DNA of 64,000 bases from a virus (lineage: Duplodnaviria; Heunggongvirae; Uroviricota; Caudoviricetes): IMG/VR virus record IMGVR_UViG_3300022660_003821; one strand, written 5' to 3'. A program made the position numbers and the translations under genes. How positions within the stretch are numbered: position 1 is the first letter of the stretch; each line of letters starts with the position of its first letter. The notes beneath the pieces are model-generated. The model had not been told where the DNA came from. It was given only the letters and a program-made list of their open reading frames with translations, and ran no database searches. Positions 8,835 through 52,445 of this stretch are shown here, in pieces.

Positions 8835-9098
8835 ATGCTTACCAAGGAACAACAAGCAGTCATTCTTGAAGAACACCACAAACAATGTCTTGCATTTTGG
8901 AAGCGCGAGAAACATTCTGATGTTTTTGCGAGTGCTATGGCATTGGTTGACATTGTACGTACTAAGCATAATCCAGTTGTACCCAAAGGTGAGGTATTGG
9001 ATGCAGAAGTACGCAAAGAAGTGGTGGAAAAACATCTTCAGGAGTTTTGCGAGATTATAAGAACTGAGTTAGAAACATCAATAGAAACGGAGGAATAA
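8835..9098 (+). CDS. hypothetical protein (87 aa)
   Basis: ORF. Confidence 0.4.
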   Translation: MLTKEQQAVILEEHHKQCLAFWKREKHSDVFASAMALVDIVRTKHNPVVPKGEVLDAEVRKEVVEKHLQEFCEIIRTELETSIETEE

Positions 9099-9289
9099 TG
9101 GATAGAATACAACATCATATTTGGGACAAATTGTGTGAAATGTCTGGAGAGGACGTAGCGCGTGCTTTCACTGACTATCACGGTAACGATTTATTGAATG
9201 AAGGCTTTTATCATCACTTGGTTGATGAAGGTATGATTGAGGATGATTTAGGTCTTCAAGAGTCTGATGATGAGGAAGAAGATGATTAA
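9098..9289 (+). CDS. small acidic protein (63 aa, DDEEEDD tail)
   Basis: ORF with an ATGA stop/start overlap with the upstream gene. Confidence 0.4.
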   Translation: MDRIQHHIWDKLCEMSGEDVARAFTDYHGNDLLNEGFYHHLVDEGMIEDDLGLQESDDEEEDD

Positions 9290-9327
9290 AGCGTGAGCAA
9301 ATGAAAATTTTTGCCACGCTTTTTTCT
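9289..9327 (+). terminator. rho-independent terminator
   Basis: AAGCGTG..CACGCTT followed by TTTTC. Confidence 0.6.
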
Positions 9328-9395
9328 TGAAAATTTTTCATCAAGTGGACAACATTGGACACCTCGACTTTCTATTCTTCACAAAGCGATAGATT

Positions 9396-9653
9396 ATGAA
9401 TGTACAAATTTCAACTCGTGTTAAGTCATTGTGCTTGGCAGTCAAAGCCTTTGTTGTGAGCATGTCTGAGGATATGAAGCACAGCAATCTCGACATACGT
9501 TTCAATAATGAAACAGACTCTTTCAACGCATTCACCCAGTTAAGAGAAATGGGTGTTAAGTGCTATCACGCCGGCAAGAATGCGCCTAATGGTGCGGCTG
9601 TTATGGTGTATAATTGTGACAGAAATGATTTTCAACTTCAAATACGCGATTAG
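9396..9653 (+). CDS. hypothetical protein
   Basis: ORF. Confidence 0.4.
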   Translation: MNVQISTRVKSLCLAVKAFVVSMSEDMKHSNLDIRFNNETDSFNAFTQLREMGVKCYHAGKNAPNGAAVMVYNCDRNDFQLQIRD

Positions 9654-10070
9654 ATGAAAACACCAATTCCTGTAATGTATTCTGTATATGGCAATCCTCA
9701 AGGACCTTGGTATTTTGGATATTGTATTGATAACACAGTTCAATATTCAACAATTGCTGTTGTAAGTAACACCATTGATAGTTTGCCTACTTATGCGAAG
9801 TTAGTTGTGCCTTTCACTCAGTTTAATCCTTTCAACTTAACTGCGAACATAAAGATCAATTTAGTTAATCAAACAGAAATTGTAAACAATCAAGTGACAA
9901 TTCAGGAGATTAAAAAGGGCGATTATTTTCGTTTCAAGGACGATGAAAATGCGCCTATCTGGGTGCGTTCTGAATATAATCGGAGCACTAAGAAATACGA
10001 GTGTTATAAATACGAAGATGTAAACCATTTTTTAGAGTGTAAAGGAGACCGAAAAGTATGGCTACTATAA
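9654..10070 (+). CDS. hypothetical protein
   Basis: ORF. Confidence 0.45.
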   Translation: MKTPIPVMYSVYGNPQGPWYFGYCIDNTVQYSTIAVVSNTIDSLPTYAKLVVPFTQFNPFNLTANIKINLVNQTEIVNNQVTIQEIKKGDYFRFKDDENAPIWVRSEYNRSTKKYECYKYEDVNHFLECKGDRKVWLL

Positions 10071-10333
10071 CGACACCAGAAATGAAAATACCTGCTGGAC
10101 TAAGCGGTATTATGAGTTACGCTCACGTAAAGGTTGGGCGTTATCCAATTCAAATGAAAAATCCTGAGCATAGTTGCACTGTCATTGTTAATGAAGCAAC
10201 TGACCAGTATCTTGCTGTGGCATTGGAAGTATCTGACAATTTATCTGATGTATGTAATAAGTTTTTATTCCATATTCAGGCTATTGAAGCAAGCGGCATT
10301 CTGCAAAGGAAATTAGTGTATTACAAAGATTAA
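10058..10333 (+). CDS. hypothetical protein
   Basis: ORF. Confidence 0.4.
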   Translation: MATITTPEMKIPAGLSGIMSYAHVKVGRYPIQMKNPEHSCTVIVNEATDQYLAVALEVSDNLSDVCNKFLFHIQAIEASGILQRKLVYYKD

Positions 10334-10343
10334 AAGTGATGTT

Positions 10344-11342
10344 ATGAACAAAAAAGTGAAAAAATATATGCCCGAATACGTGTGCTTGTATTACGTGGAT
10401 TATAACAGCAATTTGAACAACGAAACAAAAACTTTGCAGTCGTGTTTGACGCAAAATTCGCTGTACCCGTTAACTGAAAGCGTATTCGATTGGTGGGATT
10501 TCCCAGAAGAACATTATCTGGACGAAATCAAAGAGAAAATGCGTAAAGATGGCGTTGAGCATTTATTTGACGAGCATCTTGATGATATTCGTGATTGGCT
10601 ATACGACAATGACAAGTCCACACCTGTAGAAGATTTGTTGAGAAATACAGGTAGAATTGCATGTTTCTACGATTTAGGTGTAGAGCTGGATTGTGGGTGG
10701 CATGAAGCATTTATGTGTACGCCTTGGAGAAACGAATCCATTGCCTCTTGTGCATATAAAGTTCGCCGTAAGCTCGGCATTAAGAAAGGTACTCCAGAAG
10801 CAGAACAAATCTATAACATTTTGTGCAATGCAAGTTATGGTGGCTCTTTACGCATTTATTTCAATGGGGATATTGAATCACTCATTTCTGGAGATGAATA
10901 CCAAAGCGCGGACAATAAAAAAGATTTCCAGCAGATTCGCTTTAATGGTCGAGTTGCATTGGCAGTATATGACCCCACTAATGGTGCAGGTGATTTTGAA
11001 TACATGAATATTGATTGTGTATTCCCGTTTTTACGTGACAATCTATCTGTTTCCGATACTGATAAATACAGTTTGGAGCAATGTTTCGGTATGTGCGGAG
11101 ACTGGTTGGACAAATGTGTAAAGCCTGAGTTGTCAGTCGAGCCTCTGAAGAAAAAGCGTACAATGGAGAAATCTCCGGCAGCGGAATTGAGAAAGCGTGA
11201 AGCTGAACTTGATGCAGTTTTCAAAGCTGGAGGATGTACTGCCGGCGATATGGATATGCGCCGTCATAGAGATGTGTACTATGACAACAATATTCCATGC
11301 GGCCATCATTGTCCTCATTGTGGAACATTCTGGATTGATTGA
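10344..11342 (+). CDS. hypothetical protein (332 aa) with a Cys/His-rich C-terminus
   Basis: ORF two genes upstream of the reverse transcriptase, in the same operon. Confidence 0.5.
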   Translation: MNKKVKKYMPEYVCLYYVDYNSNLNNETKTLQSCLTQNSLYPLTESVFDWWDFPEEHYLDEIKEKMRKDGVEHLFDEHLDDIRDWLYDNDKSTPVEDLLRNTGRIACFYDLGVELDCGWHEAFMCTPWRNESIASCAYKVRRKLGIKKGTPEAEQIYNILCNASYGGSLRIYFNGDIESLISGDEYQSADNKKDFQQIRFNGRVALAVYDPTNGAGDFEYMNIDCVFPFLRDNLSVSDTDKYSLEQCFGMCGDWLDKCVKPELSVEPLKKKRTMEKSPAAELRKREAELDAVFKAGGCTAGDMDMRRHRDVYYDNNIPCGHHCPHCGTFWID

Positions 11343-11349
11343 TACGATT

Positions 11350-11835
11350 ATGACACAAAAAGATAACGGATACAAGTGGAATGCCGGAACTCAACCTTTA
11401 GAGAAATTGGTTGAGCCGAAGTTTAAGATTGAAAAAGGCAAATGGTATGTATGCATAAAAGACCTACTCGATAATTATGCAAACAAAGCATTTTGTAAAG
11501 GTGATACCTACTTATCTACACAAGACGGAAGTTTAATTCCATCAAATAGCAATGTTCCCTTTGAAGTAGTTTGTGATAGTACATATTTCAGAGATTGGAC
11601 TATCAATGATGCAAAGGATGGTGATGTGCTTGCCGCTCATGAATGTCTTGTGTTGTTTAAGAAACTTGATGGACTTAACATTAAATGTTATTGTACTTAT
11701 CATTTTATGGGTCATCAAAGTTTTTATGTAGATACATTGCAAAATAAGGATGCTTTTCATCCAGCTACCAAAGAACAACGTGACCTCTTGTTTCAAAAGA
11801 TGAAAGAAGCGGGTTATTATAAAACTTGGGAATAA
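11350..11835 (+). CDS. hypothetical protein (about 161 aa)
   Basis: Start taken from the ATG just after the upstream stop. Its 3' end overlaps the RT start by 10 nt, indicating translational coupling. Confidence 0.45.
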   Translation: MTQKDNGYKWNAGTQPLEKLVEPKFKIEKGKWYVCIKDLLDNYANKAFCKGDTYLSTQDGSLIPSNSNVPFEVVCDSTYFRDWTINDAKDGDVLAAHECLVLFKKLDGLNIKCYCTYHFMGHQSFYVDTLQNKDAFHPATKEQRDLLFQKMKEAGYYKTWE

Positions 11836-13100
11836 CTATGGCAGATATAATTTTACAAAAATTCTTCGAGATTGAACGCTGGGAGAAAGCGATTGAAAAG
11901 GGTGTTGTAAAAGACATTCGCAAGGATCAACTTATTAAGTTAACAAGCGAAGAAACTCGCATCCAGATGTATCGCGCTATGTATAACGGAACGTATGAAA
12001 TATCGCCTCCTCATACGGCAAAGATACCGAAGGATAACGGCGATTTTCGTACAGTTTATGTGAACGAACCTATTGACCGTATCGTTCTCAGCATAGCAAA
12101 TGACTTGCTGTTTGAACTTATGCCTGAAATGGTGCATAAGACATGTAAATCATATCAGACAGGTATTGGTTGTGGCAAGGTGGTACTGGAGGTTAGCAAC
12201 ACGATTGTAAGCGCGAACACAACAGACATTTTGGGGTGGAAAGCGGACCTTAGCAAGTATTTTGACAGCGTACCTATCAGATATATAGACGAGGCTTTTG
12301 ACAGAGTAGAAAAGAAATATGGTTACTCAGCATTAATACATGTCCTACGCAAGTATTATCATTGTGACTTGTATTTTGATGAAGATAATCAATTACATTC
12401 TGCTTATCAATCCTTAAAACAAGGTTGCGCGGTTGCCAGTTGGCTTGCAGATGTGTTATTATACAATCTGGATGAAGAGTTGTCCAAACTTCCAGGATAT
12501 TATGTTCGATATTCTGATGATATGCTGTATATCGGTTCTGACTATCAATGGGCAATGGAGTTGTTGCAACGCAGATTGTCCGAGATGGAAATGTCTTTGA
12601 ACCCCAAGAAAGTAGAATATCTGTCGGTCAATCAGTGGTTCAAGTTCTTAGGGTTTAGTATTAAAGGCAAAGACATTTCATTGTCTTCCAGTCGAATTAA
12701 AACATTTCAAAAAGAGGTTGAAGCACGTACAATAAAGAAACCGAAAGTGTCGCTTGACAAGGCAGTCCATTCAGTTAATCGTTATCTATACAAGGGTAAC
12801 GGTGAATTTAGTTGGGCTACTCAAATATTGCCGGTTTGTAATGTACAAAAGGACATTGATGAATTGAATAAATTCGTCATGGATTGTCTGAGGGCGGTGT
12901 CAACTGGAAAACGAAAAGTCGGTGGTCTTGGTTATGTAAAAAACAAAACAGATGGCTGCATCGTGCGAGGGCGAGGAAAGAATGTTACAGCAAACCGTAA
13001 CAAAACAGGTAAAATTGAGGGGTATTTAACTATCGGTTGTATGAGAAATGCCCTAATTACGAGCAGATCGGTATATAACACACTGGTCTTGTCTCTATAA
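11826..13100 (+). CDS. reverse transcriptase (424 aa), unclassified prokaryotic RT
   Basis: RT motifs 1-7 are readable: IPKDNGDFRTVYV, IDRIVLSIANDLL, ADLSKYFDSV, QGCAVASWLADVLLYNL, YVRYSDDMLYIG, LNPKK..FLGF. There is a basic 130-aa C-terminal extension. Confidence 0.85.
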   Translation: MGITMADIILQKFFEIERWEKAIEKGVVKDIRKDQLIKLTSEETRIQMYRAMYNGTYEISPPHTAKIPKDNGDFRTVYVNEPIDRIVLSIANDLLFELMPEMVHKTCKSYQTGIGCGKVVLEVSNTIVSANTTDILGWKADLSKYFDSVPIRYIDEAFDRVEKKYGYSALIHVLRKYYHCDLYFDEDNQLHSAYQSLKQGCAVASWLADVLLYNLDEELSKLPGYYVRYSDDMLYIGSDYQWAMELLQRRLSEMEMSLNPKKVEYLSVNQWFKFLGFSIKGKDISLSSSRIKTFQKEVEARTIKKPKVSLDKAVHSVNRYLYKGNGEFSWATQILPVCNVQKDIDELNKFVMDCLRAVSTGKRKVGGLGYVKNKTDGCIVRGRGKNVTANRNKTGKIEGYLTIGCMRNALITSRSVYNTLVLSL

Positions 13101-13139
13101 AGTGTAAATTGAGTATGCAATTGTGAATGAAGATACGAG

Positions 13140-14200
13140 CATTTATTCGACAGGTCTATTAACCAGAGTCCAGGAACCATTCATCCGGTATATCAACCGG
13201 ATTCAAGGTGCCAGGATTCTGGCATTAACCTGTCCATATCGAAAGAGTAAAGTTTCATACCATTCGTATGACATTCACACAAAGCACATTGTGTAGGTTC
13301 AAGGAATAAGGATTAAATATCCCGCGTTTAAGCAGCTCTACTGCGAGTCTGAAGGCCCTCTAACGATACGCCTTCGGACTCGATTATAGCTGATATACGC
13401 TGGAAATATCAACACAATAAAGGAATGTGCCAGTTATTATGAGAACCGAACAAACACTTAGCATAAAAGCGTGATTCAAGAGAATGAACTTCAATTTGCC
13501 GTCTGAATATGACGTTTCATGGCACGAGATTTCCACATCCTATCAGATGTTCCATCTCGTGATGGCGCACGTCATCTCTTACGACTAATATCTAATTCGT
13601 ATAGTGATATGCCAGCATTCCTGAGAATTACAAAAAGTTAGCATAAACGTATGGTTCAAGATGTGGAAAGTTTAATATTCAGAATGTAAGTCGATTCACA
13701 GCATCTGAATCCAGTTTATCTACTGGAATAAGATGCTGTTAATCAACATATTCTGAATTATATCAAAGCGATACAGTAATATGCCAACCGCATAGAGAAC
13801 CGTAAAAATAATCAGTATAGAATGGCAGTTCAAGTAATACATCTTCAATAACCCCGTGTCTAAGGACGGATTACCATCTCTCCATCACCCATATCTGGGT
13901 GATTCCTTGATGGTGAGCCGTCCAAGCACGGGCAATATCAAGACACTACAGAGATATACCGGTATTTTGAGATCTGCCGAAAAGCACGTATTGCAATACA
14001 AGGAGAAACCCTGATTTAATAGGCCGCGTTGCTAAATAAGCCCGCTGCCGGCGTGCAGTCTCCGTTATTACCGAGATGCACGCCGGCTACATGCTTCTTA
14101 ACGCGGCATATATCATACGATTATAGGAACGTGCCATTTCTATGAGTATTGCAGAACTTAACACAAAGTGAGAAGTCAAGATTAGAGGCTTCATTGTGCA
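13140..14200. repeat. at least 6 degenerate tandem repeat units of about 170-190 bp, sharing the consensus ATATGCCA..TGAGAA..AAAAA..AGCATAAA..GTATGGTTCAAG
   Basis: Hand alignment of the units keyed near 13235, 13423, 13607, 13777, 13960 and 14133 gives roughly 60-70% identity. There are no ORFs of 60 aa or more in any frame. Confidence 0.6.
14047..14087. other. GC-rich perfect hairpin with an 11-bp stem, GCCGGCGTGCA/TGCACGCCGGC
   Basis: Perfect inverted repeat around a 19-nt loop. Confidence 0.6.
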
Positions 14201-14365
14201 GCTTCAGATTACAAGGGCACCACGCATTCACCAGCCGATCGAGCTGGTTCTACAGGTGCCCACTGTAACAAAGCTGCATACATCGAATAACTATAGTCAT
14301 GTGTCATTCTAATTGAGACTTCATGGTAACGCAACCGATTCTTACACAAGCAATCAACATTTAAG

Positions 14366-14430
14366 ATACAGTATTATACCTGGATCCTGAAGTAATTAAC
14401 ATGGACTTCAGGATCCAGGACATACTGTAT
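14366..14430. other. 65-nt near-perfect hairpin with a 24-bp stem
   Basis: ATACAGTAT-TATA-CCTGGATCCTGAAGT on the 5' side, loop AATTAACATGG, ACTTCAGGATCCAGG-AC-ATACTGTAT on the 3' side. Confidence 0.75.
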
Positions 14431-14494
14431 ATATCAAGTATGTAAAGCAATGCGTCAATGATTTGAGTGTGAATTATTTAATAACATTTTAAGT

Positions 14495-14953
14495 ATGAGT
14501 AACATCTATCAAAATGCGATTTCTGCCGTTGAGAACGGTGCGAAATTCAAGGTCAATTTTCAAGAGCGAAGTCTGAAGATTGACGGTAAGTACATCATCG
14601 AAAACGGTGTGTATGAAGGTGAACTGGGAGTAGCGAAAGCGGATGAGCGAGAATGTTTGTCGGAGGTGGAAATGTTGTACCAACGATACAAGCATTCTGT
14701 CCCGTCAGAGCGTAGTGAAAGTAAAGCGCGACAATACTTCAGAACCTTGTCAGAGCTTGATTTGAGCGATGACGATATGATGTTTGGTGAACGAAGAGAC
14801 AAAGCGCAAATCGAACTGGAATTGTATTTCTTATGCCAAATCATTCTTGGCTTCCAGTGGAATGCTGAAACAATGGGTAATTGGTTTTGGCAAAGTGGTA
14901 ATGACAAAGACTTGGTGATACTCAAAGATTGGGTGGAGCCTACAAATAAATAA
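14495..14953 (+). CDS. hypothetical protein
   Basis: ORF. Confidence 0.5.
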   Translation: MSNIYQNAISAVENGAKFKVNFQERSLKIDGKYIIENGVYEGELGVAKADERECLSEVEMLYQRYKHSVPSERSESKARQYFRTLSELDLSDDDMMFGERRDKAQIELELYFLCQIILGFQWNAETMGNWFWQSGNDKDLVILKDWVEPTNK

Positions 14954-14985
14954 CTGTTTTTCAATAACTTTTAATTCTATCAATT

Positions 14986-16068
14986 ATGGCTAAAAAGAAG
15001 TCAAACGAGACAAAGGTGTTGTGCCCTAACTGCGGCACAGAGTTGGCAATCCCCGCACAGTCATCTATTGCTGTCGGTGTAATCATTGGTAAGGACGCTG
15101 GTCTGGGTACTGTATATGCTCCTGCTGCTGATAAGCAAAAGCGTAGCGCACAGGAACGTATCGAGGCATTGCGAGCTGCTGGGGTTGACGTAAGTAATCT
15201 ATTCGCTATGCAGGGTGCAAATGGCGGTGAGTGTATCGCTTGCAACAAGGATGGCAAACTCTCTATCTTGGACGATGACGATCCAATCTTCCAGTACATT
15301 TTGACGAATGGTACTATACCTAACCGAAAGTTGTTCAGACGCTGGGTGATGGCGCAGATGTTTTACATGATGGCCGCTGAAGACTATAAGACACATCAGC
15401 GTTATGGCGTAACTGCTATGATTCATCGTCTTGGTTACGAGTACACCTGGAAGATGTTATTGAACGAGTTGCACGCTCAGGTCAAGATGGCAAAGCACAA
15501 TGACCGTGAGAACTTTGAGGACCGCCATCGTTGGTTCAATCAGGCGGTAGTAATGCAGATGGCAAAGCATTATATCAGTGAGTTGCAGAAGTTTGTAGAC
15601 CGTAAACCTGAGAAGAGATGTAAAGGTGTGCCATACAAGACAATTGGCGGCAAGCATATCTTCGTGTCTGATTTGCGTAGTAAACTCTATAACAAGTTCT
15701 GGATGGGTCTTGGACAAATCCGTAATGCGAAGACAATTGAGCAGTTGTATGTGGCTACAAAGAATTTCAACGACAAGCGTTTGAAGTTGGATTGGGACAC
15801 TCCTCAGTGCTGTGAGTGGATTGACGCTTACAAGGGTTCTGGTGCCTACTTTACACTCCAGAACATGATTCGTTTCCACAATTGCCACATCATTGATGAT
15901 GCCGGAAAGAAGTTGGATAAGGAATTGTCTTTACAGTTCATCAAGGCCAAAGTAACTATGTATTGCAACGGTGATGGATGGAGAATGTTGGCGGTTCTGA
16001 AGAAATGTCTGGAAGATAACAATATTGACATCCGTGCCAAAATTAAGTCATGGAGAAAGCGTAAGTAA
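14986..16068 (+). CDS. hypothetical protein with an N-terminal zinc ribbon (CPNCGTE)
   Basis: 360-aa ORF. Confidence 0.5.
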   Translation: MAKKKSNETKVLCPNCGTELAIPAQSSIAVGVIIGKDAGLGTVYAPAADKQKRSAQERIEALRAAGVDVSNLFAMQGANGGECIACNKDGKLSILDDDDPIFQYILTNGTIPNRKLFRRWVMAQMFYMMAAEDYKTHQRYGVTAMIHRLGYEYTWKMLLNELHAQVKMAKHNDRENFEDRHRWFNQAVVMQMAKHYISELQKFVDRKPEKRCKGVPYKTIGGKHIFVSDLRSKLYNKFWMGLGQIRNAKTIEQLYVATKNFNDKRLKLDWDTPQCCEWIDAYKGSGAYFTLQNMIRFHNCHIIDDAGKKLDKELSLQFIKAKVTMYCNGDGWRMLAVLKKCLEDNNIDIRAKIKSWRKRK

Positions 16069-16241
16069 CCTCAAATACTTGGGAGGTATTTGTGTGATGG
16101 GTTGATAATATTTATATACCCTCCAGGTAGAAGGGACCGATGCCAGGCTACCACCTGGCCTGGTCCCTTCACGTAAGGAGGCTATAAATCATCACAGTAA
16201 AGTTATCCCCCTAATCAATAATCACACTAAATATTATCACT

Positions 16242-16832
16242 ATGAGCAAGAAGAAGTATGACCCGAAATATATAGAAGATGCTAACAAGCGTCTTTGGAA
16301 TATCTTGAATGACAAGAAAGAATTTGACGATTGGACTCAGATTTCATTGTCAGTACAAAACGCGGTACAAGCCGCCGCTAATGTCTGGGGTACGTCCAGC
16401 GATGAACAAATACACAATTTAGCGAAGTTTATTCGAGAGATTGTGGAGTCTGAACTTCATAACTTGCTTCGTTTCGATATTACGTTTGCCGACAAAAAGA
16501 CGAAGACTACAAGACAGTCTGTAGAATGGTGGCACAAGCATAATTACGGCAATCTTCAAGCATTGCTCAAACAGTTGATTAAAGAGTATGGTGGTCGTAT
16601 CGAATTAACTGATTGCCACTCTATTATTCGCGGTAGTGATGAAGCTGGGAACGATTGTGAGTGTCCTGTTATCATTAAAGCATTGTCGCTGAAAGAAAAG
16701 GATTTGATCGAAATCACATACATGGACAAAGATCAAGAGTTTGTGGATGCTTCAGACCTCTTCACATACGATGAATTATATGACATTTTATGTAACGCTT
16801 GTCAATCTTTGAACTTATGGCTGAACAAATAA
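16242..16832 (+). CDS. hypothetical protein
   Basis: ORF. Confidence 0.5.
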   Translation: MSKKKYDPKYIEDANKRLWNILNDKKEFDDWTQISLSVQNAVQAAANVWGTSSDEQIHNLAKFIREIVESELHNLLRFDITFADKKTKTTRQSVEWWHKHNYGNLQALLKQLIKEYGGRIELTDCHSIIRGSDEAGNDCECPVIIKALSLKEKDLIEITYMDKDQEFVDASDLFTYDELYDILCNACQSLNLWLNK

Positions 16833-17128
16833 CACATTATCAGAAATGTGCATGTGGAGCAATTACCGTATGGTTTGAAAATAACGCTTCCAGTAGCATG
16901 TTTATGGAGACTTTTGAGAATCTTCAATTAGACATTTCTGATGCAGAGCAATTGCCAGATTCATGTTGTTGCGACCATTGTGTAAACCATTGGGGAATTG
17001 ATTTATGTGAATGTGGCTCAGGCTCACCGGTAGGAAAATGTGAATGTGGCTCCAAACAATCGCATGATACATTAGGTGTGCAGTTTGATTCATTTGGAGC
17101 ATTAGTACGAACTTTTCAACAATGCTAA
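16799..17128 (+). CDS. small Cys-rich protein (CxxC/CC clusters; likely metal-binding)
   Basis: Contains CACGA..CCCDHC..CECGSGSPVGKCECGS. Confidence 0.4.
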   Translation: MSIFELMAEQITHYQKCACGAITVWFENNASSSMFMETFENLQLDISDAEQLPDSCCCDHCVNHWGIDLCECGSGSPVGKCECGSKQSHDTLGVQFDSFGALVRTFQQC

Positions 17129-28121: not shown

Positions 28122-29288
28122 ATGGAAAATAAATGGATTCGAGGAGCAATCCCCGCATTGCTCATACACTGCTCTATTGGGACTGTGTATTGCTGGTCTT
28201 TATTACGGAACAGCATTTGTGAGAGTTTAGGATGTCAGCCACACGTCATTGAATGGGCGTTTTCTTTGGCTATATTCTTTTTAGGTATGTCTGCTGCATT
28301 TGGTGGCAACCTTGTAGAAAAGAATGTAGGAAAGTCCGCTAAAGCGTCTGCAATATGTTTTGGTTGTGGCATGGTTGGAACTGGCCTATCTATCGCTGCC
28401 GGAAGCACGTTGGGGGTGATGTTATGCTACGGTGTTTTGATGGGAATTGGACTTGGTATAGGTTATCTCACCCCTGTTAAAACACTGATGATGTGGTTTG
28501 CGAAACACAAAGGGCTGGCAACTGGAATTGCAATTACAGGGTTTGGATTAGCGAAAGTGATTGCAGCTCCTATTATAACATATTTTCTTTCCAGATTTAC
28601 GATTGCGCATACGTTTTACATACTGGGTGGCGCATACTTCTTTTTGATGTGTATTGGCGCGATGTTAATTAGAAAACCAGAAGGCCGTGAAGAGTGGAAA
28701 GGTGTTGCGTTTAATCTTAAAGATAGTTTGAAATTTATTATCAATAAACAATACCTGGCTATATGGTTCGTGTTCTTTATAAATATAACATGCGGACTGG
28801 CTTTGATTTCTCAGGAAAAAACAATTTTGACAATAAGCGGACTCGGAGCATCGGTTGCAATCATTGCAAGTTGTACTGCGGCCCTGAATGCTATTGGTAG
28901 ATTTGGGTATTCTACATTGTCCGACAAGATAAAGGATAGAGCATCTGTGTATTTATCAATATTTTTCAGTTCTATAATTGTCCTATCATGGAATTGGCTG
29001 GGATTCAGTAGTGTGTTTGTAGTTGTAAGCGTATTGCTAATGTGTAATGCTGGGTATGGTGGAGGATTCTCTGTTCTTCCATCATTGCTCAGTGATAAGT
29101 TCGGGATGCAAAATGTGTCTGTCATTCATGGATTCGCACTAAGTGCTTGGGCATGGGCTGGCTTAATAGGAAATCACATGGGACACTATCTGCTAACCTC
29201 ACATGGAATTAGCGCATTATTTTTCGTGTTGCTTCTTTTGTATGGCATTGCAGCAATAATAACAAATAAATATATTTTAAGTAGATGA
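28122..29288 (+). CDS. MFS transporter (oxalate:formate-antiporter-like)
   Basis: About 12 predicted transmembrane segments with glycine-rich MFS-like loops. Confidence 0.7.
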   Translation: MENKWIRGAIPALLIHCSIGTVYCWSLLRNSICESLGCQPHVIEWAFSLAIFFLGMSAAFGGNLVEKNVGKSAKASAICFGCGMVGTGLSIAAGSTLGVMLCYGVLMGIGLGIGYLTPVKTLMMWFAKHKGLATGIAITGFGLAKVIAAPIITYFLSRFTIAHTFYILGGAYFFLMCIGAMLIRKPEGREEWKGVAFNLKDSLKFIINKQYLAIWFVFFINITCGLALISQEKTILTISGLGASVAIIASCTAALNAIGRFGYSTLSDKIKDRASVYLSIFFSSIIVLSWNWLGFSSVFVVVSVLLMCNAGYGGGFSVLPSLLSDKFGMQNVSVIHGFALSAWAWAGLIGNHMGHYLLTSHGISALFFVLLLLYGIAAIITNKYILSR

Positions 29289-33360: not shown

Positions 33361-33433
33361 CGCGGGATAGAGAAGTGGCCATCTCGCTTGGCTCATTACC
33401 AAGAAATCGTGGGTTCGAGTCCCACTCCCGCTA
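33361..33433 (+). tRNA. tRNA-Met (CAT), with a C1:U72 mismatch
   Basis: Hand-folded cloverleaf: D stem GAGA/TCTC, anticodon stem CTTGG/CCAAG with loop CTCATTA, T arm GTGGG-TTCGAGT-CCCAC. Confidence 0.7.
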
Positions 33434-33447
33434 CTAAACAAACAACA

Positions 33448-33951
33448 ATGAGGAACTACGGACCAGTTAGCAAAATGAATCTATTGTCTTCTGACGAGTT
33501 TAGAGAGGTTGTTAAGAAAGGACATACTTGGGTGGAGATTTCTGAATTGCTTGGTTATAAACACACCATCTCTTCTAATCTCAAAACTACGTTCTTAAAA
33601 AGATGTAATGAACTTCAGGTATTTCCAACATTCATCTCTAAAAGAGTGAAAACAATGGATGAAACCAAAGGACGGCTCTTCAAAAAGAGAAAGAATTGGT
33701 GGAGTGCAGCAGCTGGTATTAGAAAGGCCGCGAGACAAGTCTATATAGAATCTGGAAAGCCATTGTGCTGTGCGGTGTGTGGATATTCGCATTATTTTGA
33801 AGTTGCGCATATCAAACCTGTTTCAGCATTTAGTGATGACACTCCAGTGTCAGAAATAAATCATCCAGATAACCTAATAGGTTTATGTCCAAACCATCAT
33901 TGGGAATTTGATAATGGATTATTAAAATTAACGATAAACAAACAATTATGA
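33448..33951 (+). CDS. HNH endonuclease
   Basis: CCAVCGY..H..N..CPNHH is an HNH motif. The start is placed after the tRNA; the track ORF 33388 overlaps the tRNA. Confidence 0.65.
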   Translation: MRNYGPVSKMNLLSSDEFREVVKKGHTWVEISELLGYKHTISSNLKTTFLKRCNELQVFPTFISKRVKTMDETKGRLFKKRKNWWSAAAGIRKAARQVYIESGKPLCCAVCGYSHYFEVAHIKPVSAFSDDTPVSEINHPDNLIGLCPNHHWEFDNGLLKLTINKQL

Positions 33952-34157
33952 ACGATTTTAAGCAACGTAGAGAAGGCATTCTCAGTGTATTCAATCAGGC
34001 AAAGCAAGATTTGGAGACTTTGAATGCTGACATTCAAACTAAGATTGAAGCAAACCAAGCACAGATTGCTTCACTTGCAAGCCAAAATACCGAGTTGGCC
34101 GCACTTAAAAGTAGCAACGAATCGTCAATCAAGACATTCAGCAAATTCTTTAAGTAA
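33948..34157 (+). CDS. small coiled-coil protein
   Basis: ORF. Confidence 0.35.
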   Translation: MNDFKQRREGILSVFNQAKQDLETLNADIQTKIEANQAQIASLASQNTELAALKSSNESSIKTFSKFFK

Positions 34158-34166
34158 TTAAGGTGC

Positions 34167-34246
34167 GTCCCAGTGGTGAAATGGTAAACACATTGGGTTT
34201 AAGCCCCAACGCCTTTGGCTTGTAGGTTCGAGTCCTATCTGGGACA
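34167..34246 (+). tRNA. tRNA-Leu (TAA), type II
   Basis: Acceptor GTCCCAG/CTGGGAC, anticodon loop TTTAAGC, long variable arm, T arm GTAGG-TTCGAGT-CCTAT. Confidence 0.7.
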
Positions 34247-34279
34247 CAATGCTGGGAAGAGCCAGCAGAAATTAGTTCT

Positions 34280-35128
34280 TTGACATTAAAAATGATTAAC
34301 AGCATGAAGAAATTTATGTATTTATTGATTGCGCTATTTGCTTGCGTATCATTTACAAGTTGTCATGGCGTTATGCCTGGTGCAGATGAAGAAGCAGTGT
34401 TGGTTCATAAGCCTTGGTTCTTTGGACATGGAGGCGTTGATAAGGAGCCTGTGACTACCGGGTGTACATGGTGTTGGTGGAGTACAAGTTCGGAGACGTT
34501 CAAGATTATCCCGGTTAAATATACCGAGAAGTTGGATGACATTATCTCAAACGAGAACACACCATTGGACTTCAACACTATGATTACACTTCAAGTCCAA
34601 AAAGGTAAATCTCCCCTATTGCTTGAAAACTACGGTGTGAATTGGTATGATAATAACATCAAGGAAACGTACAATAACCTTACACGACATTATGTTTCCC
34701 AGTATTCGCCATTCGATTTAACAAGTAACCGAGAAGTCATCGCACATATAGACTCTTGTGTAAAAGCAGATATGGTTAAATATATTGCCAAGCTATCTGA
34801 AAGCAAAGAGTTCCCAGTCACGGTGGTTAATGTAATTACAGGACGAGCGATTCCTAATAACGCTCAGTTAGCTGAAATGAATAATACCGCAGCTCAAATA
34901 CAGGCCAGACAGACTCAGGAACGAAGATATGAAATGGAGTTAGCACGAGAGAAGGCTGAGAGCCAGCGTGCGATTTCAGATAAAGCATATCAGCAAAAGA
35001 TGGGTTTGACTGCCGAACAGTTCATCAGTCTGAAGGCTTGGGATGTTATCAGTGAAAAACAGGGTGCTAATATTGATGTCCTATTCAATGCTGATGCGAC
35101 CAGTAAAATGTGGAATGTCCGGCGATAA
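34280..35128 (+). CDS. SPFH/Band-7 domain lipoprotein
   Basis: Signal peptide with a Cys (LFACVSFTSC). The C-terminal helical segment ...QARQTQERRYEMELAREKAESQRA... is stomatin/HflC-like. Confidence 0.55.
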   Translation: MTLKMINSMKKFMYLLIALFACVSFTSCHGVMPGADEEAVLVHKPWFFGHGGVDKEPVTTGCTWCWWSTSSETFKIIPVKYTEKLDDIISNENTPLDFNTMITLQVQKGKSPLLLENYGVNWYDNNIKETYNNLTRHYVSQYSPFDLTSNREVIAHIDSCVKADMVKYIAKLSESKEFPVTVVNVITGRAIPNNAQLAEMNNTAAQIQARQTQERRYEMELAREKAESQRAISDKAYQQKMGLTAEQFISLKAWDVISEKQGANIDVLFNADATSKMWNVRR

Positions 35129-35165
35129 CGCAAATCATAAATCAAACGAGGCGTAACAGCCTCAT

Positions 35166-35238
35166 GGAGCCTTAGCTCAGTTGGGAGAGCGTCTGCTTTG
35201 CACGCAGAAGGTCGTGAGTTCGACTCTCACAGGCTCCA
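35166..35238 (+). tRNA. tRNA-Ala (TGC)
   Basis: Acceptor GGAGCCT/AGGCTCC, anticodon loop TTTGCAC, T arm GTGAG-TTCGACT-CTCAC. Confidence 0.75.
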
Positions 35239-35243
35239 CATTC

Positions 35244-35315
35244 GCCCGATTCGTCTATCGGTTAGGACGCAAGATTTTCATTCTTGAAAGAGGAGTTCGA
35301 CTCTCCTATCGGGTA
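35244..35315 (+). tRNA. tRNA-Glu (TTC)
   Basis: Anticodon stem CAAGA/TCTTG with loop TTTTCAT, T arm AGGAG-TTCGACT-CTCCT. Confidence 0.7.
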
Positions 35316-35620
35316 CATTAGCCCTAAGTACACGGGATCGAAACCTCTCAGGCCCCGTCTCTGAGACCAGATCGTTAGCTGGGTGGTTGCTGCGCCATGA
35401 CAGAAGCAGCACTTAGATATAAGCCTGAATGCGCACAGGAACGAAGACACTGCACACTTAAAAAGTTCTGAAAAGAGAAGTGTAAAGGGCGGTCCAAATC
35501 GTAGGTTGGCGAGTGTTTACCGAGCTGGGTATTTTGTCGGTTCCAGGTGTTGAATTGGGGTTCAAATCCTTACATACCAGCGAAAGCCGGTATGCCATCA
35601 GGGGAAGTTTAGCACCACTT

Positions 35621-35694
35621 GTCTTGGTAGCTCAGTAGGTTAGAGCACTGCCCTGATAAGGCAGAGGTCGCAAGTTCAAGTCTTGCCTGAGACA
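35621..35694 (+). tRNA. tRNA-Ile (GAT)
   Basis: D stem GCTC/GAGC, anticodon stem CTGCC/GGCAG with loop CTGATAA, T arm GCAAG-TTCAAGT-CTTGC. Confidence 0.7.
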
Positions 35695-35763
35695 CAACCA
35701 TTAAAAATGGCTTAATTGATTGACAATTCCAGTGTGTTCTTGTGAAAGCTCATGCTGGAGAAT

Positions 35764-35847
35764 GGAAGGTAAAGTAGCGAGGTCGCTGCAACGGTCTTGA
35801 AAACCGATTGTCCTTTACGGGATTCTCTTCGAGTGGGATGCCTTCCG
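35764..35847 (+). tRNA. tRNA-Ser (TGA)-like, type II, with weak anticodon-stem and T-stem pairing
   Basis: Anticodon loop CTTGAAA in an E. coli Ser(UGA)-like context, with a long variable arm and an imperfect T stem. Confidence 0.5.
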
Positions 35848-35851
35848 CAAT

Positions 35852-35938
35852 GGTAGATTGACAGAGTGGACGAATGTGACGGTCTGCAAAACCGTATGAG
35901 TTAAATCTCACGCGCTGGTCCGAATCCAGCATCTACCT
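35852..35938 (+). tRNA. type II (Ser-like body) tRNA with anticodon GCA
   Basis: Acceptor GGTAGAT/ATCTACC, D stem ACA/TGT, anticodon stem ACGGT/ACCGT with loop CTGCAAA, variable-arm stem TGAG/CTCA, T arm GCTGG-TCCGAAT-CCAGC. Confidence 0.55.
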
Positions 35939-36003
35939 CATCGCTGTAGGATAATTTCGTTCCCCTTCCTATTCTACAGCATCGCCCCAATCGTGGGGCA
36001 CTT

Positions 36004-36076
36004 ATGGGTGTAGCACAGTTGGTAGTGTTCTTGGTTTGGGACCAAGAGGTCGCAGGTTCGAGTCCTGTCATCCATA
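36004..36076 (+). tRNA. tRNA-Pro (TGG)
   Basis: Anticodon stem CTTGG/CCAAG with loop TTTGGGA, T arm GCAGG-TTCGAGT-CCTGT. Confidence 0.6.
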
Positions 36077-36093
36077 CAAGAATTTATTAGACG

Positions 36094-36279
36094 ATGGATG
36101 ATAAAATAGTTAAAGCTATTGACAAATTATTTGCAGAAGCTCGCCAAGGCAATAAAGAGTCTTTTGAAATTATTGGTGAAATATTTAGTAAAGTAACCCA
36201 TGAAATGATAGTATCTCAAAGTTGTACTGAACAAATGAGACGAAATTATTCACGGTTCAAAAGATATAACATGAAATAA
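36094..36279 (+). CDS. small hypothetical protein (61 aa) between tRNA genes
   Basis: ORF. Confidence 0.3.
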   Translation: MDDKIVKAIDKLFAEARQGNKESFEIIGEIFSKVTHEMIVSQSCTEQMRRNYSRFKRYNMK

Positions 36280-36291
36280 TAATTTGTATAT

Positions 36292-36366
36292 GGGTTAATT
36301 AGTTCAATGGTCAGAACGCCTGTTTGTGGCACAGGAGACGGCAGTTCGATTCTGTTATTAGCCCCA
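36292..36366 (+). tRNA. tRNA-His (GTG) with G-1 and an encoded CCA
   Basis: D stem GTTC/GAAC, anticodon stem CCTGT/ACAGG with loop TTGTGGC, 3' end ATTAGCC-C-CA. Confidence 0.7.
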
Positions 36367-36368
36367 AA

Positions 36369-36429
36369 GGAACTGGTAGCTCAGTTGGCAAGAGACTTGG
36401 GTCGGTGGTTCGAGTCCACCTCAGTTCCC
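36369..36429 (+). ncRNA. tRNA-like element of about 61 nt without a proper anticodon arm; possibly a tRNA pseudogene
   Basis: Acceptor GGAACTG/CAGTTCC, D-loop-like AGCTCAGTTGGCAAGAG and T arm GGTGG-TTCGAGT-CCACC are all present. Only a 3-bp GAC-TTGG-GTC mini-hairpin stands where the anticodon arm should be. Confidence 0.4.
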
Positions 36430-36540
36430 TCAAAACCATTCGGGGTTAAGTGGAAGCCCGCCCCTGCGCATGAGTTTATGAGTACCTTGAACTCAACAAA
36501 CACTTATCGGGACATGGTGGTTAGGGTTGATCCATCACAT

Positions 36541-36613
36541 AGTGCATTAGTTCAGTGGTTAGAACGCCTGCCTGTCACGCAGGAGGTCACGGGTTCGAGT
36601 CCCGTATGCACTG
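36541..36613 (+). tRNA. tRNA-Asp (GTC)
   Basis: Perfect acceptor AGTGCAT/ATGCACT, anticodon loop CTGTCAC, T arm ACGGG-TTCGAGT-CCCGT. Confidence 0.75.
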
Positions 36614-36618
36614 CAATT

Positions 36619-36705
36619 GGAGGCGTGGGTGAATTGGTAAAACCACCACACTGCTAACGTGGCTGTCGTGAAAGCGGCTTGCAGGTTCGAAACCTGCCGC
36701 CTCCG
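36619..36705 (+). tRNA. tRNA-Ser (GCT), type II
   Basis: Acceptor GGAGGCG/CGCCTCC, anticodon loop CTGCTAA, long variable arm, T arm GCAGG-TTCGAAA-CCTGC. Confidence 0.7.
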
Positions 36706-36727
36706 CAATAACTTAATAGAAACAATT

Positions 36728-36952
36728 ATGAGCAACAAAACAACAACATCTGGAACAGGCATATCTTTTTTAGGTTTGCTTGCTATCGTTTTCATTACAT
36801 TAAAATTATGTAACGTCATCACTTGGTCATGGTGGTGGGTAACTGCTCCATTATGGGGAGGACTTGCTTTTTGGTTGGCCATTACTATTATTGCAATGGT
36901 ATGTTACGTGTTGATGTTACTGATTAAATGTATGGCAAAACGTAAGTCATAA
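36728..36952 (+). CDS. small two-transmembrane-helix protein (75 aa)
   Basis: Internal Met of ORF 36659..36952, placed after the tRNA-Ser. Confidence 0.4.
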   Translation: MSNKTTTSGTGISFLGLLAIVFITLKLCNVITWSWWWVTAPLWGGLAFWLAITIIAMVCYVLMLLIKCMAKRKS

Positions 36953-36958
36953 ATAGAT

Positions 36959-37029
36959 TGCTCTGTGGTGTAATGGTAACACATTAGATTTTGGTCCTGA
37001 GATTCCAGGTTCGACCCCTGGCAGAGCAA
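36959..37029 (+). tRNA. tRNA-Gln (TTG)
   Basis: Perfect acceptor TGCTCTG/CAGAGCA, D stem GTGT/ACAC, anticodon loop TTTTGGT, T arm CCAGG-TTCGACC-CCTGG. Confidence 0.65.
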
Positions 37030-37072
37030 CTAATCATTTTACGTAAAGCCTCAATTCGCATCTTTCTCGATA

Positions 37073-52443: not shown

Positions 52444-52445
52444 CT

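What the first reader, a model, noticed from the sequence alone, without database searches (positions are those of the whole stretch)
11826..13100. Orphan reverse transcriptase inside a phage early/accessory operon, with no canonical DGR, retron or group II intron context
All seven RT motifs are readable in the 424-aa product, including YSDDML and a motif-4 QGCAVASWLADVLLYNL. That motif 4 reads S-W..AD, which is neither the retron/group II QGxxxSP form nor the DGR SQ..AN form. A basic 130-aa C-terminal extension follows. The RT start overlaps the upstream gene by 10 nt (ATG inside ..AAAACTTGGGAATAA), so it is co-transcribed with two unknown genes (10344..11342 and 11350..11835). No Avd-like helical protein is present, there is no space for a template repeat upstream, and no intron-like RNA flanks it. 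Phage-borne RTs outside DGRs are rare and often belong to defence or superinfection-exclusion families (UG/Abi/DRT-like), several of which work with a non-coding RNA.
Basis: partly seen in the sequence, partly recalled or inferred. Interest (0 to 1): 0.75.

Follow-up and report, generated by a model that had tools for sequence, protein, structure and literature searches.

The report
UG27 phage reverse transcriptase, hairpin-RNA array
The "orphan" reverse transcriptase is a member of the already described UG27 family of gut-phage reverse transcriptases, and it sits in a fixed four-part cassette with eight tandem structured-RNA modules and two unknown proteins whose biological role is still unknown.

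Summary
The ORF is real and is a reverse transcriptase (RT). The likely start is ATG 11838 (420 aa), not 11826. It matches the PADLOC UG27 profile end to end (E 2.5e-228). It is not orphan. In all 17 viral relatives the order is RT, a non-coding array, RTas346 (14495-14953), RTas337 (14986-16068). UG27, both partner genes, the phage context and a putative ncRNA were published by Mestre et al. 2022. A September 2026 preprint that I could not read mentions UG27 74 times, with "ncRNA array", "hairpin" and "cDNA".

The 1.4-kb ORF-free stretch (13101-14494) holds eight tandem modules. Each module has a small stem-loop, a 65-86-nt hairpin and a 3' block complementary to the stem-loop's loop. That complement is exact in 151 of 180 modules, against 22.5% after permutation. 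Relatives carry 3-8 modules. Near-identical phages differ by replacement of one hairpin's mid-stem.

DGR, retron and group II intron memberships fail. The most likely mechanism is inferred, not shown: the RT copies the module hairpins into single-stranded hairpin DNA. The family is known and its function is open.

The parts
11838..13100 (+). UG27 reverse transcriptase, 420 aa from ATG 11838. Catalytic YSDD at residues 225-228. Basic C-terminal region at residues 291-420, with an invariant Y413-N-T-L-V tail.
   Evidence: PADLOC RT_UG27 E 2.5e-228, aligned 1-420/420. Pfam RVT_1 8e-19. Conservation across 11 relatives. pI 9.9 for the C-terminal region.
13101..14494 (+). Non-coding array of eight tandem modules (H0-H7) between the RT stop and the RTas346 start.
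   Evidence: Periodic leader motif every 150-182 nt. Module coordinates. Present downstream of the RT in viral and bacterial-genome relatives, with 3-8 modules. No Rfam match.
13108..13261 (+). Module H0. Stem-loop with loop X = GTATG (13113-13117), hairpin 13149-13234, X' block TCATACC (13255-13261).
13279..13431 (+). Module H1. X = GCACA (13284-13288), hairpin 13320-13404, X' = ATGTGCC (13425-13431).
13457..13613 (+). Module H2. X = GCATA (13461-13465), hairpin 13500-13583, X' = ATATGCC (13607-13613).
13637..13785 (+). Module H3. X = GCATA (13641-13645), hairpin 13677-13758, X' = ATATGCC (13779-13785).
13811..13960 (+). Module H4. X = GTATA (13815-13819), hairpin 13853-13932, X' = ATATACC (13954-13960). 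The mid-stem 13860-13918 is replaced in the near-identical arrays L023 and L028.
13980..14135 (+). Module H5. X = GCACG (13984-13988), hairpin 14023-14107, X' = ACGTGCC (14129-14135).
14157..14305 (+). Module H6. X = ACACA (14161-14165), hairpin 14195-14280, X' = ATGTGTC (14299-14305). The mid-stem 14205-14270 is replaced in L017.
14325..14456 (+). Module H7. X = ACGCA (14329-14333), hairpin 14366-14430 with a perfect 15-bp inner stem, X' = ATGCGTC (14450-14456).
   Evidence: (I9).
14495..14953 (+). RTas346 (cluster 346 of Mestre et al.), 152 aa, acidic (pI 4.8), no recognisable fold.
14986..16068 (+). RTas337 (cluster 337), 360 aa, basic (pI 9.5). N-terminal CxxC zinc-ribbon-like motif followed by a helical domain. 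No confident fold match.

Best explanation
This is a complete UG27 system carried by a large phage of Bacteroidales.

Shown:
- The cassette is RT, eight tandem RNA modules, RTas346 and RTas337, all on the + strand with no terminator-like signal between them.
- Each module folds in the + strand transcript as a small stem-loop, a long imperfect hairpin, and a 3' block that pairs with the stem-loop's loop. That pairing closes the module around its hairpin.
- The scaffold sequence is conserved. The hairpin sequence is free to change as long as it still pairs.

Inferred:
- The RT recognises the conserved scaffold of each module and copies the bracketed hairpin into single-stranded DNA. One phage would then make up to eight different hairpin DNAs. 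The topology resembles a retron msr-msd RNA, repeated in tandem.
- RTas337 (basic, zinc ribbon) and RTas346 (acidic) act with the RT-RNA or RT-DNA complex as partners or effectors.
- The exchangeable mid-stems suggest that the double-stranded part of each hairpin is read in a sequence-specific way during phage-host or phage-phage conflict.

Whether the system defends a lysogen, counters host defence or serves the phage's own cycle is not known.
For: Family and cassette:
- Full-length UG27 profile match plus RTas346 and RTas337.
- Invariant synteny in 17 viral loci.
- Arrays also lie downstream of the RT in the bacterial-genome loci whose contig extends past the RT.
- Mestre et al. 2022 describe the same trio, plus a putative ncRNA, in gut phages.

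Structure:
- Hairpin segments fold far better than shuffles (mean z -5.7 over 69 units). The leaders do not (mean z 0.1).
- Compensatory changes occur in 8 of 20 and 9 of 14 pairs of two orthologous hairpins.
- The small stem-loop covaries: 96-97% canonical pairs, with 5-6 pair types.
- An exact 5-bp complement of the loop is found across the hairpin in 151 of 180 modules. Permutation gives 40.6 +/- 5.1, and pairing within the same leader gives 21%.
- Twelve block variants are each matched by their complement. All eight window modules are perfect.
- Among imperfect closing helices, 18 have G.U and 2 have A.C. This places the fold on the + strand RNA.

Template role (indirect):
- The nearest characterised relatives, DRT2, DRT9 and DRT10, all copy a partner ncRNA.
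- A 2026-09-24 preprint that I could not open holds UG27 x74, 'ncRNA array' x10, hairpin x33, cDNA x24, ssDNA x5 and 'DNA hairpin' x1.
- The reverse complement of the hairpins is computed as more stable in 60 of 69 units.
- Single mismatches are pyrimidine-pyrimidine on the + strand 96 times and purine-purine 24 times. They would be purine-purine in a cDNA. From my own knowledge, not tested here, purine-purine mismatches are the better tolerated kind in DNA.
Against: - No cDNA, transcript or protein data are available here. That the hairpin is the template is an inference.
- DRT9 and DRT10 copy only a short template next to a boundary stem-loop. The long hairpins could therefore be scaffold or boundary elements rather than templates.
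- The strand-stability asymmetry persists without G.U pairs. It may simply reflect G-poor loops on the + strand (8.7% G).
- G.T and A.C single mismatches in the long hairpins are equal, 24 against 21.
- The contents of the 2026 preprint are known only from word counts.
- Neither accessory protein has a recognisable fold.
- Mestre et al. found no defence-island association.
Confidence: 0.7

Rival explanations
1. The RT uses only a short template in the conserved linker or junction of each module, as in DRT9 and DRT10. It would make repetitive or homopolymeric, possibly protein-primed, DNA. The long hairpins would be structural or template-boundary elements and would not be copied.
For: After UG26, UG17 (DRT10) and UG28 (DRT9) are the next-best PADLOC profiles. 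DRT10 uses a stem-loop as its 5' template boundary and primes from a conserved C-terminal Ser or Tyr. UG27 has an invariant C-terminal Y413-N-T-L-V. The junction motifs A(T/C)ATC, TAAAG and TGAGA are the most conserved bases of the module.
Against: The C-terminal regions are not homologous at profile level. The UG17 and Drt9 hits stop near residue 296. It is hard to see why 3-8 different hairpins, with rapidly exchanged mid-stems, would be kept if they were only boundaries. The unread preprint has 'protein-primed' 0 times and 'hairpin' 33 times.
Confidence: 0.17
2. The array is an adaptive, CRISPR-like record. The hairpin mid-stems are acquired sequences, written in by the RT together with RTas337 acting as an integrase.
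Confidence: 0.04
3. The region is a DNA-level element, such as a replication origin with iterons and cruciforms or a recombination site array. On this reading the RT is only a neighbour.
For: It is intergenic, A+T-rich and regularly repeated, and it sits upstream of the replication genes: SbcCD-like, DnaB, primase-like and DNA polymerase.
Against: Linkage to the RT and to the two RTas genes is strict across phages that share little else. The closing helix tolerates G.U but not A.C (18 against 2), which is a single-strand, + sense signature. Covariation keeps pairing while sequence changes.
Confidence: 0.03
4. It is a diversity-generating retroelement, a retron or a group II intron in an unusual arrangement.
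For: It has an RT next to structured RNA. The module topology, a closing helix around a hairpin, recalls a retron msr-msd.
Against: Group II maturase model: 93.8 bits against a cut-off of 300. Retron St85 model: 36 bits against 235. No DGR-named model appears among the hits listed by PADLOC or NCBIfam; PADLOC lists only the best 25 of 61. There is no TR/VR-like repeat in the window and no intron RNA in Rfam. The best profile by 190 orders of magnitude is UG27.
Confidence: 0.02

Closest known systems
UG27 systems (class 2 UG/Abi reverse transcriptases; Mestre et al., NAR 2022, PMC9226505)
   Same: The RT profile matches full length. The cluster 346 and cluster 337 genes are present. There is a structured non-coding region between the RT and cluster 346. 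The carrier is a tailed phage of gut Bacteroidota. No defence-island context is reported.
   Different: Nothing differs at the level of membership. The 2022 paper describes the RNA only as a putative ncRNA with three long stem-loops. Here it resolves into 3-8 tandem modules, each with a covarying closing helix, and with exchangeable hairpin mid-stems. A September 2026 preprint (10.64898/2026.09.22.753630) apparently treats UG27 'ncRNA arrays', but I could not read it.
Retrons (msr-msd ncRNA plus RT)
   Same: A conserved RNA part and a variable long hairpin are bracketed by a short helix formed from the sequences on either side. The RT is encoded next to the RNA. Accessory proteins are present.
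   Different: The RT belongs to a different clade: the retron model scores 36 bits against a cut-off of 235. The RNA lies downstream of the RT and is repeated 3-8 times. The closing helix is a loop-to-tail pairing of 5-6 bp, not a1/a2 terminal repeats. A branched msDNA has not been shown.
DRT10 (UG17) and DRT9 (UG28)
   Same: After UG26, these are the next-best profile matches and the nearest characterised ones. They are class 2 UG RTs that depend on a structured ncRNA. A conserved C-terminal hydroxyl residue could serve as a primer.
   Different: Their single ncRNA lies upstream of the RT and provides a short template for tandem-repeat or poly-dA DNA. They are bacterial defence systems, with a SLATT effector in DRT10. 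UG27 has a downstream multi-module array, different partner proteins, and lives in phages.
DRT2 (UG2)
   Same: A class 2 UG RT with a structured ncRNA that it reverse transcribes.
   Different: DRT2 has one ncRNA upstream, copied in rolling-circle fashion to make a concatemeric gene, and no accessory proteins.
CRISPR arrays with RT-Cas1
   Same: Conserved repeats alternate with variable segments, the unit number varies, and an RT sits next to the array.
   Different: The variable segments are self-complementary stems, not unique spacers. No Cas1 or Cas2 homology was confirmed. No protospacers were found.

Membership tests
UG27 (UG/Abi class 2) | The RT matches the UG27 profile better than any other RT group, over its full length. 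| tested here: met
   PADLOC RT_UG27 E 2.5e-228, aligned 1-420/420. Next best is UG26 at 2.3e-34.
UG27 (UG/Abi class 2) | An associated cluster 346 gene is present. | tested here: met
   14495-14953 matches RTas346 at 3e-69. Syntenic in every relative whose contig reaches that far, 16 of 17; L013 ends before it.
UG27 (UG/Abi class 2) | An associated cluster 337 gene is present. | tested here: met
   14986-16068 matches RTas337 at 3e-141. Syntenic in the same relatives.
UG27 (UG/Abi class 2) | A structured non-coding region lies between the RT and the cluster 346 gene. | tested here: met
   1394 nt with eight hairpin modules. Hairpin mean z -5.7. Covariation in the hairpins, the stem-loop and the closing helix.
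UG27 (UG/Abi class 2) | Carried by tailed phages of gut Bacteroidota or Firmicutes. | tested here: met
   The window encodes TerL, a DNA polymerase, DnaB, NrdD and 11 tRNAs. Relatives are IMG/VR contigs and loci in Alistipes, Bacteroides, Phocaeicola and Segatella genomes.
UG27 (UG/Abi class 2) | An intact RT catalytic motif (YxDD). | tested here: met
   YSDD at residues 225-228, invariant in 11 relatives.
Diversity-generating retroelement | A DGR-clade RT. | tested here: not met
   No DGR-named model appears among the families listed by PADLOC (best 25 of 61 shown) or NCBIfam. The motif QGCAVASW is the UG27 signature.
Diversity-generating retroelement | A template/variable repeat pair with adenine-specific differences, and a target gene. 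| tested here: not met
   No repeat of 13101-14494 elsewhere in the 64-kb window beyond 11-13-nt chance matches. The rest of the roughly 150-kb genome was not searched.
Diversity-generating retroelement | An Avd-like accessory protein. | tested here: not met
   The neighbouring ORFs have no significant Pfam, PADLOC, NCBIfam or PHROG hit other than RTas346 and RTas337 (only DUF592 at E 0.024).
Retron | A retron-clade RT. | tested here: not met
   NCBIfam retron_St85 scores 36 bits against a cut-off of 235. PADLOC retron RT models reach 1.7e-11 at best.
Retron | An msr-msd RNA whose flanks pair (a1/a2) around a template hairpin. | tested here: inconclusive
   An analogous closing helix (X/X') brackets each hairpin. 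It is a loop-to-tail pairing, it lies downstream of the RT, and it is repeated in tandem.
Retron | A 2'-5' branched multicopy single-stranded DNA. | not testable with these tools
   This needs nucleic-acid extraction from expressing cells.
Group II intron | An intron-encoded RT/maturase. | tested here: not met
   TIGR04416 scores 93.8 bits against a cut-off of 300.
Group II intron | Intron RNA domains flanking the ORF. | tested here: not met
   A permissive-threshold Rfam scan of 9000-17000 returned only a chance mir-580 hit on hairpin H7.
DRT9 / DRT10 (UG28 / UG17) | The RT belongs to that UG group. | tested here: not met
   Drt9 6.7e-22 and UG17 2.7e-24, both covering only the RT core, against UG27 2.5e-228.
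DRT9 / DRT10 (UG28 / UG17) | Protein-primed synthesis of repetitive DNA from a short template. | not testable with these tools
   Only a conserved C-terminal Tyr413 can be pointed to.
CRISPR-Cas adaptation module | A Cas1-like integrase. | tested here: not met

The most novel reading that the evidence does not exclude
The 12-25-bp mid-stems of the hairpins are exchangeable specificity cassettes. On this reading, each phage carries a small library of hairpin DNAs or RNAs whose double-stranded segments are read by sequence-specific proteins. They could act as decoys for, or sensors of, restriction-modification or other DNA-recognising systems of the host or of rival phages. Diversifying selection would then drive the clean allele swaps seen between otherwise 98-99% identical arrays. 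If the unread 2026 preprint does not already show this, it would be a new kind of nucleic-acid-based specificity array outside CRISPR.
Probability: 0.15. Interest if true: 0.85.

Novelty: already known. Interest (0 to 1): 0.4.

Why it matters
UG27 is one of the few UG/Abi reverse transcriptase groups that live in phages rather than in bacterial defence islands. It is abundant in human-gut Bacteroidales phages, and its function is unknown.

This analysis gives a concrete, testable anatomy:
- discrete RNA modules, each closed by its own covarying helix;
- hairpins whose mid-stems are swapped between near-identical phages;
- two partner proteins without known folds.

That tells an experimenter what to mutate (X/X', YSDD, Y413, the mid-stems) and what to sequence (RT-dependent DNA from 13101-14494). 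For the genome scan itself the lesson is modest. The finding is a correct detection of a published family, not a new kind of element.

Tried and rejected
1. A megablast of 10300-16100 against GenBank phages found no match, so no annotated close relative could be used.
2. The Rfam scan found nothing real.
3. Sigma-70 promoter and intrinsic terminator scans gave counts at shuffle level. A hand scan for the Bacteroides -7 box TAnnTTTG found nothing near the array. The transcription unit is therefore inferred only from gene order.
4. Fold searches of RTas337 and RTas346 found no credible match. I considered the Cas1 resemblance of RTas337 and dropped it.
5. Protospacer-like matches of two hairpin mid-stems in IMG/VR returned none outside their own contig. 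An exact 43-mer from a conserved leader found nothing in JGI metagenome contigs.
6. My first reading put the pairing of the ATGTGCC block with the AGCACA loop inside one leader. That gave only a weak signal, 74.6% against 72.9% shuffled. It is replaced by the cross-hairpin pairing.
7. I tried to infer the folded strand from stability. The reverse complement is computed as more stable, but the effect survives removal of G.U pairs and tracks loop composition. It is suggestive only.
8. The 2026 preprint could not be opened. Only term counts were obtained.
Full report
**Observation.** The + strand ORF 11826-13100 exists. Pfam RVT_1 matches at E 8e-19. The last 130 residues are basic, with pI 9.9.

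The start needs correction. Codon 11826 is TTG, and the quoted string contains no ATG. ATG 11838 lies two bases after the upstream stop. It gives a 420-aa protein that aligns 1-420/420 to its family profile. It also matches the N-termini of all relatives. So there is no overlap with the upstream gene.

**Identity.** Against PADLOC the protein hits RT_UG27 at E 2.5e-228. The next best profiles are UG26 (2e-34), UG17 and Drt9. The two ORFs after the non-coding gap hit RTas346 (14495-14953, 3e-69) and RTas337 (14986-16068, 3e-141). These are the models built for the genes that accompany UG27.

Models for group II maturases, retrons and DRT2-4 all score far below their cut-offs. Rfam finds no intron or other family. 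Nothing in the window repeats the non-coding region. DGR, retron and intron readings are therefore rejected.

**Literature.** Mestre et al. 2022 (PMC9226505) defined UG27 as a class 2 UG/Abi RT. They found it in 1447 dereplicated gut-phage genomes, including Crassvirales and their proposed Astarteviridae and Habisviridae. It always occurred with clusters 337 and 346 of unknown function. They reported a putative ncRNA "with three long stem-loops" between the RT and the next gene. They found no defence-island enrichment and suggested anti-defence or addiction roles.

A bioRxiv preprint dated 2026-09-24 (10.64898/2026.09.22.753630) is indexed but could not be opened. Term counts show UG27 x74, "ncRNA array" x10, hairpin x33, cDNA x24, ssDNA x5, "DNA hairpin" x1, pseudoknot x12, Bacteroides x8 and "protein-primed" x0. 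I treat this as a sign that the array, and probably a hairpin cDNA product, are already described. I do not treat it as evidence for any detail.

**Context.** The window belongs to a large tailed phage. It encodes TerL, a DNA methyltransferase, NrdD, an SbcCD-like pair, DnaB, a Toprim protein, a DNA polymerase and eleven tRNAs. The exact RT protein is on at least 24 public contigs, including two of 147 and 162 kb whose arrays are identical to the window.

In 17 IMG/VR relatives (RT 73-78% identical, plus the close relative L017, whose RT is 97.7% identical at the nucleotide level) the order RT, array, RTas346, RTas337 never changes wherever the contig extends that far. The upstream gene 11350-11835 is absent from all of them, and 10344-11342 is only sometimes present.

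Sixty-four further relatives lie in Bacteroidales genome assemblies. These include the complete chromosomes of Alistipes sp. i18-0019-D1 (two copies) and Segatella copri HDD04. At least some carriers are therefore integrated.

**The non-coding region.** The stretch 13101-14494 is a tandem array. A leader motif recurs every 150-182 nt: A(T/C)ATC..TA(A/T)AG..ATGTGCC..TGAGA..AGCACA..TCAAGG..TTnAAT. Between successive leaders lies a 65-86-nt imperfect hairpin with a different sequence each time.

Over 69 distinct units the hairpin parts fold with a mean z of -5.7 against shuffles. The leaders fold at z 0.1. Orthologous hairpins from different phages show compensatory changes in 8 of 20 and 9 of 14 predicted pairs.

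**The small stem-loop and the closing helix.** Inside the leader, a 3-5-bp stem with a 6-nt loop of the AGCACA type covaries strongly. Pairs are 96-97% canonical, with five or six pair types.

The key result is the phase of the module. The loop 5' of a hairpin is exactly complementary, over five Watson-Crick pairs, to the A-NNNNN-C block about 25 nt 3' of the same hairpin. This holds in 151 of 180 modules. Permuting the blocks gives 40.6 +/- 5.1, and the block in the same leader matches in only 21%.

Twelve block variants each have their matching loop. In the window all eight modules are perfect: GTATG/CATAC, GCACA/TGTGC, GCATA/TATGC twice, GTATA/TATAC, GCACG/CGTGC, ACACA/TGTGT and ACGCA/TGCGT. 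With this phase the array contains eight complete modules (H0-H7) and no orphan halves. H0 begins just after the RT stop.

Where the closing helix is imperfect, the exception is G.U 18 times and A.C twice. The fold therefore belongs to the + strand RNA, the sense of the RT gene.

**Dynamics.** Relatives carry 3-8 modules, and close relatives differ by one module.

Arrays that are 98-99% identical to the window differ by replacement of a single hairpin's mid-stem on both arms, with the base and apex kept:
- H6 (14205-14270) in L017.
- H4 (13860-13918) in L023 and L028. In L023, 25 of the 35 differences fall in those 59 nt.

The new mid-stems are still self-complementary. Several metagenome contigs end inside the array, as expected if populations are heterogeneous there. 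Two mid-stem 20-mers have no match elsewhere in IMG/VR.

**Proteins.** The RT has an invariant C-terminal Y413-N-T-L-V. DRT10 primes from a conserved C-terminal Ser or Tyr, and DRT9 from an internal Tyr (PMC12632851), so protein priming is possible but untested.

**Mechanism.** What is shown is a conserved cassette whose RNA folds into independent modules, each closed around a variable hairpin.

What is inferred is that the RT binds the conserved scaffold and copies the hairpin into single-stranded DNA, as a retron RT copies msd. The support for this is indirect:
- The characterised class 2 relatives all copy their partner RNA.
- The vocabulary of the unread preprint points the same way.
- There are two strand asymmetries in the hairpins. 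The reverse complement is computed as more stable in 60 of 69 units. Single mismatches are pyrimidine-pyrimidine on the + strand 96 times against 24 purine-purine.

The first asymmetry may be only a loop-composition effect. G.T and A.C mismatches are balanced. The alternative, that only a short linker is templated, remains open. The biological role is unknown.

**Verdict.** The detection is correct and the family-level guess was good, but the element is a published family with many public copies. Interest is moderate. It rests on the unresolved function and on the module and allele-swap anatomy documented here, part of which may already be in the 2026 preprint.

Noticed in passing
window 50737-55915: The DNA polymerase is split into two ORFs, 50737-52443 and 53744-55915. 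They match positions 36-441 and 442-1062 of one PHROG polymerase profile. A PIF1-like helicase gene (52446-53747) sits exactly between them.
   Followed up: partly
window 43079-46448: An SbcD-like phosphoesterase and an SbcC-like protein (a 'palindrome-specific endonuclease' family) are encoded by the same phage that carries eight long hairpins. Any link to hairpin DNA was not examined.
   Followed up: no
window 33361-37030: A cluster of 11 tRNA genes, with an SPFH/Band 7 family gene (34280-35128) inside it.
   Followed up: no
window 28122-29288: A major facilitator superfamily transporter gene (Pfam MFS_1, 7e-26) inside a phage genome.
   Followed up: no
L018-L021, L023 (window equivalents 13767-13845): Five independent metagenome contigs from different samples end inside the array, close to module H4. 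This suggests assembly breaks caused by within-sample variation or by the repeats.
   Followed up: partly
L017 versus window: Mosaic relatedness. The RT is 97.7% identical at the nucleotide level, with a one-base frameshift in the IMG/VR contig. The array is about 99% identical apart from H6 and the H0 region. RTas346 and RTas337 are only 84% and 80% identical in protein.
   Followed up: partly
L051 and L055 (NZ_AP031424.1): One complete Alistipes chromosome carries two UG27 loci about 1 Mb apart, with 7 and 5 leader motifs. I did not check whether both sit in prophages.
   Followed up: no
long hairpins of 166 modules (window 13149-14430 and relatives): Isolated mismatches inside the stems are strongly biased on the + strand. 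C.C, U.U and C.U total 96. Purine-purine mismatches total 24. No explanation has been established.
   Followed up: partly
P0053, P0083 (relatives of window 14986-16068): NCBI names some RTas337 homologues 'ubiquitin carboxyl-hydrolase' in Bacteroides xylanisolvens and Phocaeicola dorei. No Pfam or NCBIfam model supports that name here.
   Followed up: partly
window 13123-13296, 13519-13641, 13856-14014: Short ORFs of 40-57 aa lie inside the array, and one of this size is called as a gene in a metagenome record (L028). They overlap hairpins, and I take them to be spurious; I did not test their conservation.
   Followed up: partly
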